A stretch of 64,000 bases of DNA from Perna viridis (lineage: Eukaryota), in assembly GCA_037379345.1 (NCBI GenBank), contig CM074511.1, forward strand, positions 42,538,862 to 42,602,861, read 5' to 3'. Made by a program: the position numbers. Positions 57,201 to 60,200 of this stretch are shown here, in pieces. Position 1 is the first letter of the stretch. Each line of letters opens with the position of its first letter.

Positions 57201-60200
57201 GACACCCGGACCTGAACAGGTCCAAAAACAATTTGCAATTGATGTATAACACTTCATGGAGTCATAACGTTTGTGTCCTAAAAGGAAAATGTTATTTCAT
57301 TTCTGTGGAATTAAATAGTAAGCACTAAGCAAAAGCAGAATATTAGTTTAGTGTCAGTCCCTGTAAGAATCAGGCAGTAGGTGAAACATGGTATGAAAAA
57401 AAAACATAATTTTTAAAGTGTAATTTGACTATTTGCACCATCAGAATCAAGGAAAACTGACAAGATTTTCCATATCATGCTGGACCATTGAGTTATAATT
57501 TCATTGAAATGCACTGAAAATGAACATTTCAAGTGTAGATAACTGTCCAAAACCTCATTTTTCTAAAATTCTAATGAAAAATTTCTTAGCAAATCAAATG
57601 ATGCAGAGATCAATTAATGGTCTTTTCAAATAGAGAAAGCATCATTGAGTGATATTTTATTGTTAGATGGTTGGGCTTTTGACATGCATGTTTCTGATTT
57701 TTCCCATTTTGCCTGATTCTTACAAACACTTAATCTTAAATAATAGGATTGTACACTTAAATAATTCCATTTTTTAGGATAATTATAGTATCAAAGAATA
57801 AAGCTCCAATGGTGATCTGTTCTACATTACCATATAACAAAAAGTAAGTTAAATCAGTGGATTATCTGTTCTACATTACCATACAACAAAAAGTAAGTTA
57901 AATCAATGGTGATCTGTTCTACACTACCATACAATAAATAGTAAGATAAATCAATGGTGATCTGTTCTACACTACCATACAACAAAAAGTAAGTTAAACC
58001 AATGGTGATCTGGTCTACACTACCATACAACAAAAAGTAAGTTTAACCAATGGTGATCTGTTCTAAATTACCATAAAACAATAAGTAAGTTAAATCAATG
58101 GTGATCTGTTCTACACAACCATACAACAAAAAGTAAGTGAAACCAATATTGTTCTGTTCTACACAACCATACAACAAAAAGTAAGTTAAATCAGTGGATT
58201 ATCTGTTCTACATTACCATACAATAAATAGTAAGATAAGTCAATGGTGATCTGTTCTACACTACCATACAACAAAAAGTAAGTTAAACCAATGGTGATCT
58301 GGTCTACACTACCATACAACAAAAAGTAAGTTAAACCGATGGTGATCTGGTCTACATTACCACACAACAAAAAGTAAGTTAAACTGATGGTGATCTGTTC
58401 TATACAACCATACAACAAAGAGTAATTTAAACCAATGTTGATCTGTTCTACACAACCATACAACAAAAAGTAAGTTAAATCAATGGTGATCTGTTCTACA
58501 TTACCATACAACAAAAAGTAAGTTAAATCAATGGTGATTTGTTCTGCACTACCATACAACAAAAAGAAAGTTGAATCAATGGATTATCTGTTCTTCACAA
58601 CCATACAACAAAAAGAAAATTAAATCAATGGTGATCTGTTCTTCATTACCATACAATGAAAAGTAAGTTAAATCAATGGTGATCTGTTCTACATTACCAT
58701 ACAACAAAAAGTAATTTAAATCAATGGTGATCTGTTCTACATCACCATACAACAATAAGTAAGTTAAACCAATGGTAATCTGTTCTAAATTACCATACAA
58801 CAAAAAGTAAGTTAAACCATAGTTTTATAGCAAAAAATTAATCAAATTAGTTGTGAAGAGTTATTATCTAAATATAATATGAATCATGATAAAGCAGTCA
58901 TCCTGTTGTTTTTATTCACACTGTTTTTTAGTCATCACTGTTAAGGATATTGATATTTATACATTCTAATTTTTGACACATGTGGTTTTATAGTAATAAT
59001 GATTAATACTTGTGATTTAGAGCAGAGTATGAGGAAATTAAGATAACAAGAACAAGAAACATGTCAGGGACATCACATGAAGGACTGCTGTACCTGGGTC
59101 TGCATGCTGTAGGACTTGTAGAGGAGGGGCAGGTACACTTTCATTGTACATTGGAAAAATTGCAACACATGTTTTCATATGAACCTAAACATATGAAAAA
59201 ACATTATAAGGTTTTTTTCCGGTGTTTTAAAAACATATGATAAACATGTTACATTTTTCCTGTGTACTCTAGTTCTTATCAATATTTATGACTTTCATAA
59301 ATCATTAAGATTTTGTTGTTTAGAAGCAGCTTCACTGCGCAGGAACAGAAAGTAATCTAATTGAAAAGAAAGTCACAAATAAAAGAAAAATGAATAAGCA
59401 AGTTTTCTGGGAGAATTAATGATACAGTACTTACAGTACTTTATATGGTAATTGTCATGGTAACCACTGGAGAAAAAAAATCTCTGAGAAAGAAGACTCC
59501 TCATTCATCCTGATGATACCACTCATAACCTCTTTAGTTTGTTCTGTCAAATCTTATCACAATACTTCTAACAGTATTTAGTTTAACATTTATTATCTGA
59601 ATGTCAACAGGCTATAACAAATAAAATAACTCATTTGTATGTATATTGCCTGTGTTTATGCCTATAAGACGAAAAGTAAATACATCACGGAAGATTTTCT
59701 CTTGATGAGCAAATAAACAAGAAGCTTTATACTAAACAGTTTTTATATTTTGTATTATTCAATGCTTTGGCATATGCCAAGGATTCATAAACTCTACTGA
59801 TGATTATGCTTTAAATGATTCTCTTACTGTTCTCAGTCATTGATGTATTTTATAACGGTGCTAGTGAATGACTTATTGTGGATGCTAGTAGATATGATAA
59901 AACTAGAACATATTTCAACTTGCAACCAATAACACTTATCTATTTATAGGAGGTATCCTACGGCTAGTTTTATATTTATAGTATGTATTGTACACTGTAC
60001 AGTGAGATATCTATTTATAGAATGTATTGTACAGTGAGTTTTCTATTCATAAGAAGTATTTTACAGTGAATTTTCTATTTATTGGATATATCATACAAAG
60101 CCTTATCTATTTATCGGATGTATCATACATTGCCTTATCTATTTATAGGATGTATCATACAGTGCCTTATCTATTTGTAGGATGTATCATACAGTGAGTT

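What the first reader, a model, noticed from the sequence alone, without database searches (positions are those of the whole stretch)
59934..60197. Mirror-image case: 32-bp acceptor array growing upstream of CABLES exon 6
Seen: the unit is a pyrimidine tract, AG and the first 16 exon bases. Similarity to the real junction falls with distance upstream. The AG is lost in two nearby copies (TATTG|G and TATCG|G) but kept in the adjacent copy (60147-60148) and in distal copies. The unit is not a multiple of 3, so using the adjacent upstream AG frameshifts to a TAG. Inference: the phenomenon affects both splice-site types with the same polarity, and loss of AG may reflect selection against competing acceptors.
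Basis: partly seen in the sequence, partly recalled or inferred. Interest (0 to 1): 0.66.

Follow-up and report, generated by a model that had tools for sequence, protein, structure and literature searches.

The report
Splice-acceptor minisatellite in mussel CABLES intron
A 32-base piece spanning the end of an intron and the start of an exon of a bivalve CABLES gene has been copied head to tail, leaving seven decoy splice-acceptor copies in the intron; this is real, but it is a kind of repeat already described in amphioxus ('mirage' minisatellites).

Summary
The array is real. TRF finds 8.2 copies of a 32-nt unit at 59934-60202. All 7 upstream copies match the real junction at 23-31 of 32 positions, while no other + strand site in the window exceeds 18. 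The last copy is the intron 5/exon 6 junction of a bivalve CABLES gene. A relative's transcript-like protein and 41 of 41 aligned orthologs read ...GQ|D/E/Y-V/I-S-Y/F... across it, so the exon half is old coding sequence and the intronic copies derive from it. All 15 other AGs in the array give a premature stop.

- Similarity falls for two copies (31, 29) and then plateaus at 23-26 (Spearman -0.40, p 0.38).
- AG is lost in 3 of 7 copies, not 2. That is the neutral expectation (P 0.29).

The window holds three further junction arrays, all donor type: CABLES exon 4 and two MIB1 exons. Only one shows a gradient.

This kind is known: amphioxus 'mirages', including an acceptor type, and human donor minisatellites such as F7 intron 7. 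I found no bivalve report. It is a new member of a known kind.

The parts
59021..59132 (+). CABLES exon 5 (ends in phase 0 at CAG|GT)
   Evidence: tblastn of P0001 and P0002 gives 84% identity over 59019-59132. The acceptor and donor were read by eye.
59133..60180 (+). CABLES intron 5 (1048 nt). Its last 247 nt are the array.
   Evidence: The intron's only matches in the window are the array's self-shifted matches.
59934..59965 (+). Decoy unit 1. AG kept (59948-59949). 25/32 identical to the real junction.
59966..60004 (+). Decoy unit 2. 39 nt because of an internal 7-nt tandem duplication. AG kept (59980-59981).
60005..60036 (+). Decoy unit 3. AG kept (60019-60020). 25/32. Ends in a donor-like ACA|GTGAGT.
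60037..60068 (+). Decoy unit 4. The homologous AG is AA (60051-60052), with an AG shifted by one base (60052-60053). 23/32.
60069..60100 (+). Decoy unit 5. AG lost (TG). 24/32.
60101..60132 (+). Decoy unit 6. AG lost (CG). 29/32.
60133..60164 (+). Decoy unit 7. Intact tract and AG (60147-60148). 31/32, with the exon half 16/16. Using it adds 32 nt and ends in a TAG.
60165..60196 (+). Unit 8, the authentic junction: TTTGTAG|G with AG at 60179-60180. It has a private A-to-G change at -4 relative to all 7 other copies.
   Evidence: Junction supported.
60197..60202 (+). Six exon bases that still match the first six bases of the older units (a partial ninth copy). TTAT at 60199-60202 and TTAT at 60167-60170 are 32 nt apart.
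   Evidence: TRF array end is 60202. Sequence read.
60181..60292 (+). CABLES exon 6 (112 nt). It starts with the conserved DVSYSELL motif.
   Evidence: tblastn hit at 60181-60291, 81% to P0001. Ortholog alignment. The only open frame among the 16 AG choices.
57807..58816 (+). Related array: 48 bp x 21. The first unit is the end of CABLES exon 4 (exon 57778-57843) plus its GTAAGT donor.
44061..44864 (-). Related array: 72 bp x 11. The first unit is the end of the MIB1 exon that ends at 44801, plus its GTAGGT donor.
32086..32623 (-). Related array: 39 bp x 14. The first unit is the end of the MIB1 ankyrin-repeat exon that ends at 32593, plus its GTAAGT donor.

Best explanation
This is a junction-anchored intronic minisatellite of the kind described in amphioxus as a 'mirage'. 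A 32-nt segment spanning the intron 5/exon 6 boundary of a bivalve CABLES gene was tandemly duplicated several times.

Origin (inferred): replication slippage or unequal exchange. The first event was possibly seeded by the TTAT...TTAT microhomology 32 nt apart.

Why the copies lie upstream (shown): only the copy that is contiguous with the rest of the exon can give an open reading frame. The functional acceptor is therefore necessarily the last copy, and the other seven are intronic decoys.

History (shown from the units): there are at least two age classes.
- Units 1-5 are 72-81% identical to the junction. Units 2-4 form a subfamily.
- Units 6-7 are 91% and 97% identical. They share a CC in place of the AG that starts most of the older units.
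The junction copy itself therefore took part in recent duplication or gene conversion.

Decoys (shown): they drift about neutrally, including at their AG.

Splicing (inferred): productive splicing uses AG 60179-60180. Any use of the 15 other AGs gives a premature stop and would presumably be cleared by nonsense-mediated decay. Because the unit carries only 16 intron nt, the branch point serving the real AG should lie inside the last repeat units, for example in the TCATAC stretch at about 60157-60159, 21-23 nt upstream.
For: - Array and register.
- Significance: (lag-32 match 0.74 against a shuffle maximum of 0.454; no other + strand site above 18/32).
- Junction: P0001, a 449-aa protein from a 2270-nt contig and therefore intron-free, reads ...VEEGQ then DVSYS.... 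tblastn places these at 59132 and 60181.
- The exon half is ancient coding sequence: D[VI]SY in 37 of 41 aligned CABLES orthologs and [DEY][VI]S[YF] in 41 of 41, from molluscs to insects.
- Only 1 of 16 AGs gives an open frame. The adjacent AG gives a TAG.
- Local origin: the unit and the rest of the intron have no other copy in the window.
- Age classes and subfamilies: pairwise matrix.
- Neutral decay: intron halves 87/112 and exon halves 94/112 identical to the junction. AG positions take 3 of 33 changes against 2.06 expected.
- The same architecture occurs at three other junctions in the window. That makes 4 of 12 arrays with period of 20 or more, against 0.37 expected from random seeding (P 3.5e-4, post hoc).
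- Precedent: passages of PMC3087553 and PMC1557585.
Against: - No RNA data from this species. Use of 60181 rests on homology and the reading frame only.
- The adjacent decoy has an identical tract and AG. Simple branch-point-to-first-AG scanning would favour an upstream AG unless the branch point lies inside the array. I could not test that.
- yUnAy-like motifs sit 11, 35 and 43 nt from the real AG, and none is obviously decisive.
- The TTAT microhomology is weak evidence in 32% G+C DNA.
- The copy number in the assembly could be wrong or polymorphic.
- Whether relatives carry the array could not be checked, because no eukaryotic genome collection was available.
Confidence: 0.84

Rival explanations
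1. Functional decoy array. The repeated tract, AG and branch-like copies are kept by selection, either to tune CABLES output through unproductive splicing coupled to nonsense-mediated decay or as repeated binding sites that strengthen recognition of the real acceptor.
For: The adjacent decoy is intact and all decoy choices give stops, so such a circuit is mechanically possible. Junction arrays are enriched in the window.
Against: Decoys diverge at about the same rate in both halves, and AG is hit at the neutral rate. Copies 1-5 are only 72-81% identical. No expression data.
Confidence: 0.08
2. Exonisation. A pre-existing intronic minisatellite supplied the acceptor and the first 16-22 bases of exon 6, so the exon borrowed from the repeat rather than the reverse.
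For: Sequence identity alone does not give a direction. The real unit differs from all the others at position -4.
Against: The exon bases encode DVSYSELL. D[VI]SY is present in 37 of 41 orthologs and [DEY][VI]S[YF] in 41 of 41, including insects, brachiopod and nemerteans. The coding sequence therefore long predates a species-level repeat.
Confidence: 0.02
3. Transposon-borne satellite-like array, as carried by Helentron-type elements in oysters, that landed next to the exon by chance.
For: Such dispersed arrays are reported in Crassostrea gigas (PMC7492417; search listing and start of the abstract only).
Against: There is no other copy of the unit or of the flanking intron in 64 kb. Half of the unit is the neighbouring exon's conserved coding sequence. 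Three other arrays in the window each match their own exon.
Confidence: 0.02
4. Assembly artefact. The copies are mis-assembled reads of a single junction or of alleles.
For: Tandem repeats are often mis-sized in assemblies. Passages of the amphioxus paper report an aberrantly assembled mirage.
Against: The copies differ by 3-28% and one has a 7-nt insertion, which collapse or duplication errors do not produce. Copy number, not existence, is what could be wrong.
Confidence: 0.04

Closest known systems
[quoted passage not shown] Source: Ebner et al. 2010, PMC3087553, passages read. They cite Canestro et al. 2002, which was not held.
   Same: A tandem array whose terminal unit is the authentic junction. 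BflGb6 is the acceptor type (3' end of an intron plus 5' part of the exon). Many but not all copies keep AG/GT. Regular splicing is reported as undisturbed. Both 5' and 3' boundaries are affected.
   Different: The phylum (mollusc, not cephalochordate). The unit is much shorter (32 nt, against 150-160 bp in BflGb6), so it cannot carry a normal branch point to AG region. There are eight copies. Instability and haplotype differences, shown in amphioxus, are untested here.
Human donor-type junction minisatellites: F7 intron 7 (37 bp), CBS intron 13, the 6-16 gene, LMNB2 and PDGF. Source: Borensztajn et al. 2006, PMC1557585, abstract and passages.
   Same: The first or last monomer spans the exon/intron boundary. 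Identical pseudo-sites in the intron stay silent or are little used. They serve as a natural model for splice-site choice.
   Different: Those are donor arrays, where the most upstream site is chosen by 5'-to-3' scanning. Here it is an acceptor array, where the most downstream AG must be chosen. The three donor arrays in this window are the direct analogues.
Intron gain by tandem duplication of an AGGT-containing segment (Rogers model; Hellsten et al. 2011, PMC3265369; potato RdRp, PMC4974935). Search listings only.
   Same: Tandem duplication that duplicates splice signals. The transcript is rescued by splicing out the extra copy.
   Different: There a new intron is created inside an exon. 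Here an existing intron is merely lengthened and no new intron position arises.
NAGNAG and other tandem acceptors (recalled, not searched).
   Same: Competing AGs at one exon start.
   Different: Their spacing is 3 nt and in frame, giving protein isoforms. Here the spacing is 32 nt, out of frame, and every alternative ends in a stop.

Membership tests
Junction-spanning ('mirage') minisatellite | Head-to-tail array of similar units | tested here: met
   TRF gives period 32, 8.2 copies, score 237. Lag-32 match is 0.74 against a shuffle maximum of 0.454.
Junction-spanning ('mirage') minisatellite | The unit contains both intron and exon sequence, and one terminal unit is the authentic junction | tested here: met
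   Unit 8 (60165-60196) straddles AG|G at 60180|60181. The junction is fixed by P0001 and ortholog alignments.
Junction-spanning ('mirage') minisatellite | Extra copies lie in the intron and the coding sequence stays intact | tested here: met
   Exons 5 and 6 are open and 81-84% identical to P0001. The decoys lie at 59934-60164 inside intron 5.
Junction-spanning ('mirage') minisatellite | Regular splicing is not disturbed | not testable with these tools
   No RNA reads of this species. There is only the reading-frame argument and a relative's transcript-like protein.
Junction-spanning ('mirage') minisatellite | Copy-number instability or polymorphism | not testable with these tools
   Only one haplotype in one window is available.
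Transposon-borne satellite-like array (Helentron type) | Dispersed copies with shared flanks | tested here: not met
   No second copy of the unit or of the intron flanks in the 64-kb window. The whole genome was not available.
NAGNAG-type tandem acceptor | Alternative AGs a multiple of 3 nt apart that give in-frame isoforms | tested here: not met
   Nearest tract-bearing decoy AG (60147) adds 32 nt; the AG at 60161 (+18 nt, in frame) still hits a stop. 15 of 15 alternative AGs give a stop.
CABLES (CDK5 and ABL1 enzyme substrate) gene | Protein homology to named CABLES proteins with a C-terminal cyclin domain | tested here: met
   Window exons match P0001 (PF00134 precomputed). The best named relatives of P0001 are the Mytilus 'CDK5 and ABL1 enzyme substrate 1' proteins, at 71%. 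The cyclin-box exons lie beyond the window end.

The most novel reading that the evidence does not exclude
Junction-anchored minisatellites may be a frequent, non-random class in this mussel genome: 4 of at least 53 splice junctions in 64 kb, and 4 of the 5 arrays with 8 or more copies. Two causes are possible. Either a mutational process targets exon/intron boundaries, or purifying selection on the exon copy keeps a 'master' unit intact that keeps re-seeding and homogenising the array. If so, they would be a standing source of decoy splice sites, of intron lengthening or sliding, and of unproductive splicing across bivalves. That would extend a phenomenon so far described only in amphioxus and in a few human genes.
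Probability: 0.25. Interest if true: 0.65.

Novelty: new member of a known kind. Interest (0 to 1): 0.38.

Why it matters
An acceptor array with an intact, sequence-identical decoy 32 nt upstream of the real AG is a natural experiment on 3' splice-site choice. The unit is too short to carry a normal branch-point region, so simple 'first AG after the branch point' scanning predicts trouble, yet the gene is conserved.

Together with three donor arrays in two neighbouring genes, it suggests that mirage-type repeats are not an amphioxus peculiarity. They may be common in bivalve genomes, where they could mislead gene prediction and generate transcripts targeted by nonsense-mediated decay.

The specific claim that AG loss reflects selection against competing acceptors does not hold for this array.

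Tried and rejected
- The 37-aa exon 6 peptide was too short for the protein search. The 49-aa stop-to-stop frame that contains it was used instead.
- Rfam (gathering threshold) over 57000-61000 gave 0 matches.
- Test for a transposon or dispersed repeat: the intron matches only its own array, and the unit occurs nowhere else in the window.
- Test for selection on AG: not significant.
- Test for a higher-order repeat: lag 64 and lag 96 matches (0.60, 0.57) are lower than lag 32.
- The 26-bp x 1.9 duplication at 7074-7122 next to a MIB1 exon ends before the junction and is not a junction array.
- Three MIB1 hits with unusually high scores (P0121-P0123) carry duplicated whole-domain segments in their gene models, not junction repeats.
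- Canestro et al. 2002 is not held.
- Literature searches for bivalve or mollusc junction repeats found none. This is weak evidence of absence. Zhuo et al. 2007 (introns from tandem arrays) is recalled only. Its title phrase occurs in 14 papers, presumably in their reference lists, which I did not open; I did not read the paper itself.
- Structure, complex and atlas tools were not used because they do not bear on the question.
- Supplements are closed, so the mirage alignments and trees of PMC3087553 (its Additional files 4-6) were not seen.

Full report
**What is there.** TRF reports an array at 59934-60202 with period 32, 8.2 copies, 76% matches and score 237.
- Anchoring on the conserved TCTATT core gives eight units, starting at 59934, 59966, 60005, 60037, 60069, 60101, 60133 and 60165. 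All are 32 nt except the second, which is 39 nt because of an internal 7-nt tandem duplication.
- Each unit is 16 nt of intron (a T-rich tract ending in TATAG) followed by 16 nt identical or similar to the start of the downstream exon.
- The eighth unit is the real junction: TTTGTAG|G, with AG at 60179-60180.

**Is it more than chance?** Yes.
- The lag-32 self-match of the segment is 0.74. The best lag in 2000 dinucleotide-preserving shuffles averaged 0.384 and never exceeded 0.454.
- The real-junction 32-mer scores at most 18/32 anywhere else on the + strand of the window (one 20/32 hit on the - strand). The seven upstream copies score 23-31.

- The stop-to-stop frame containing exon 6 (60181-60327) found one protein, P0001. 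It is 449 aa, from a 2270-nt contig, carries a cyclin domain and has no name.
- P0001 reads ...LVEEGQ directly followed by DVSYS.... tblastn puts these two halves at ...59132 and 60181... in the window, with 84% and 81% identity.
- A search with P0001 returned 753 proteins. The best named ones are 'CDK5 and ABL1 enzyme substrate 1' of Mytilus (71%), followed by oysters, scallops, gastropods and cephalopods. The window is therefore from a bivalve, probably a mussel relative. The species was not determined. It is not human.
- I aligned 41 of the 120 listed proteins. I chose them to spread over species and dropped mostly extra isoforms and insects. The two window exon peptides were added as separate fragments.
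- The first four exon-6 residues are D[VI]SY in 37 of 41 and [DEY][VI]S[YF] in 41 of 41. Residue 8 is L in 41 of 41.
- The exon half of the unit is therefore old, conserved coding sequence. The intronic copies derive from the junction, not the other way round.
- Of the 16 AG dinucleotides between 59934 and 60180, only the last gives an open frame to the exon-6 donor at 60292|60293. The other 15 meet a stop.
- Using the adjacent AG (60147-60148) adds 32 nt.
- There are no RNA data for this species, so actual usage is inferred.

- *Similarity.* Identity to the real junction, nearest copy first, is 31, 29, 24, 23, 25, 26 (gapped), 25 of 32. The fall is a step followed by a plateau (Spearman -0.40, p 0.38).
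- *Unit families.* The pairwise matrix shows a young proximal family (units 6-8, 29-31/32), an older subfamily (units 2-4, 25-28/32) and two solitary units, 1 and 5.
- *Unit 7.* It is closer than unit 8 to every other copy, because the real junction alone has G at -4.
- *Unit starts.* The three proximal units begin with CC, where four of the five older ones begin with A-G/A/C (unit 1 begins AC), matching the exon bases that follow the 16-mer. Against the older units the homology therefore reaches 60202, up to 22 exon nt, which is where TRF ends the array.
- *Possible origin.* TTAT occurs at 60167-60170 and again at 60199-60202, 32 nt apart. This microhomology could have seeded the first slippage. 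It is a weak inference in 32% G+C DNA.
- *AG loss.* It affects three of seven decoys (units 4, 5 and 6), not two. Unit 4 has an AG displaced by one base.
- *Is the AG loss selective?* The AG positions carry 3 of 33 differences from the unit consensus (2.06 expected) or 3 of 43 from the real junction (2.69 expected). The probability that three or more of seven units are hit under uniform mutation is 0.29.
- *Overall drift.* Intron halves (87/112) and exon halves (94/112) have drifted similarly. There is no signal of selection against competing acceptors, and the strongest competitor, unit 7, is intact.

**Surroundings.** The window holds two divergently oriented genes.
- A MIB1-type E3 ligase lies on the - strand from 51337 to 2288. 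It gives 22 tblastn exon segments against an oyster MIB1, with Pfam Mind-bomb SH3 and ankyrin hits.
- CABLES lies on the + strand from 54291. Six coding exons are in the window.

Three more arrays begin exactly at a junction. All are donor type.
- *48 bp x 21 after CABLES exon 4.* Identity of the 20 decoys to the junction is 37-47/48 with no gradient (rho 0.19). GT is kept in 18 of 20, read by eye from the printed units.
- *72 bp x 11 after the MIB1 exon ending at 44801.* There is no gradient (rho 0.03). The two low values are register shifts caused by 1-nt deletions.
- *39 bp x 14 after the MIB1 exon ending at 32593.* There is a clear gradient over the 8 copies that the gapless walk could follow (rho -0.98).

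A gradient is therefore not a general property. The fact that the extra copies lie on the intron side is a logical necessity in a gene that still works.

Four of the 12 arrays with a period of 20 nt or more span one of at least 53 junctions. That compares with 0.37 expected if the seed duplications fell at random (P 3.5e-4). They are also 4 of the 5 arrays with 8 or more copies. This test is post hoc, and the array list and junction count are mine.

**Other explanations tested.**
- There is no Rfam family in 57000-61000.
- The intron outside the array, and the unit itself, have no second copy in the window. This argues against a transposon-borne satellite such as those reported in oysters (PMC7492417; listing and start of abstract only).
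- Copies that differ by 3-28%, one with a 7-nt insertion, are not what mis-assembly makes. The copy number could still be wrong.

**How it most likely works.**
- *Shown:* the array consists of copies of the acceptor junction, only the last copy is productive, and the decoys decay roughly neutrally.
- *Inferred, origin:* the array arose and expanded by slippage or unequal exchange, with at least two episodes. The recent one involved the junction copy itself.
- *Inferred, fate of decoy use:* use of a decoy AG would give transcripts with premature stops, which nonsense-mediated decay would remove.
- *Inferred, branch point:* the unit brings only 16 intron nt. The first duplication therefore pushed the original branch point 32 nt further from the real AG and left it in front of a decoy AG. 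For the real AG to be used, a branch site inside the repeat is needed.
- *Branch-site candidates:* the TCATAC stretch 21-23 nt upstream, whose neighbouring CAG (60160-60162) would be too close to the branch to compete; or the CTTAT motifs 11 and 43 nt upstream.
- That 3' sites are generally chosen by scanning from the branch point is stated in a passage of PMC1557585. The minimum-distance rule is recalled.

**Comparison with what is known.**
- Ebner et al. [quoted passage not shown] They first cite them for Adh3 (Canestro et al. 2002, not held).
- Their examples include an acceptor-type case (BflGb6: 3' end of the intron plus 5' part of exon 2, units of 150-160 bp, 3 or 6 copies) and a donor-type case (BflGb9). 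Many but not all copies keep AG/GT, and splicing is undisturbed.
- Borensztajn et al. 2006 (PMC1557585; abstract and passages) list human donor-type cases (F7, CBS, 6-16, LMNB2, PDGF). They show that pseudo-donors in F7 are functional but silent.
- The present array meets the three structural criteria of that class. Instability and splicing behaviour could not be tested.
- I found no bivalve or mollusc report, which is weak evidence of absence.
- The differences from the amphioxus acceptor case are the phylum, the very short unit, and the local density (four arrays in two adjacent genes).

**Left unchecked.**
- Relatives' introns could not be examined, because no eukaryotic genome collection was on hand.
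- RNA evidence and population variation were not available.
- The supplements of the amphioxus paper were closed.

**Verdict.** It is a new member of a known kind. The selection inference is not supported and the gradient is only partial. The density of junction arrays in this window is the most interesting lead.

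Noticed in passing
57807-58816 (+); 44061-44864 (-); 32086-32623 (-): Three donor-type junction arrays: 48 bp x 21 after CABLES exon 4, and 72 bp x 11 and 39 bp x 14 after two MIB1 exons. TRF also reports higher-order periods for two of them: 337 bp for the 48-bp array, and 215 and 287 bp for the 72-bp array. This suggests block-wise unequal exchange.
   Followed up: partly
2288-51337 (-) and 54291-60292 (+): MIB1 and CABLES lie head to head, about 3 kb apart. In some searches the two proteins of at least eight species have the same 'longest contig' length: Crassostrea angulata, Ylistrum balloti, Lineus longissimus, Liolophura sinensis, Babylonia areolata, Mercenaria mercenaria, Mactra antiquata and Sinanodonta woodiana. 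In Sinanodonta the locus tags are consecutive (041187 and 041188). This suggests old conserved linkage. That human MIB1 and CABLES1 are also neighbours is recalled, not tested.
   Followed up: no
59995-60001 within unit 2: A 7-nt internal tandem duplication (CTGTACA) makes unit 2 39 nt long. This is small-scale slippage inside the array.
   Followed up: yes
60191-60199 and unit ends at 60031-60039: The exon start contains a strong donor-like ACA|GTGAGT 13 nt after the acceptor. The older decoys keep it. The three proximal unit boundaries have GTGCCT instead, which removes the donor-like motif from the young intronic copies. The significance is unknown.
   Followed up: no
8602-9070: A large AT-rich 21/42-bp array (about 21 copies) in a MIB1 intron. 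It is not adjacent to any exon, and it is the only array with 8 or more copies in the window that is not junction-anchored.
   Followed up: partly
7074-7122 (-): A 26-bp x 1.9 duplication that ends about 6 nt before a MIB1 acceptor. It is close to the junction but does not span it.
   Followed up: yes
whole window: G+C is 32% and CpG observed/expected is 0.29, which is strong CpG depletion for an invertebrate sequence.
   Followed up: no
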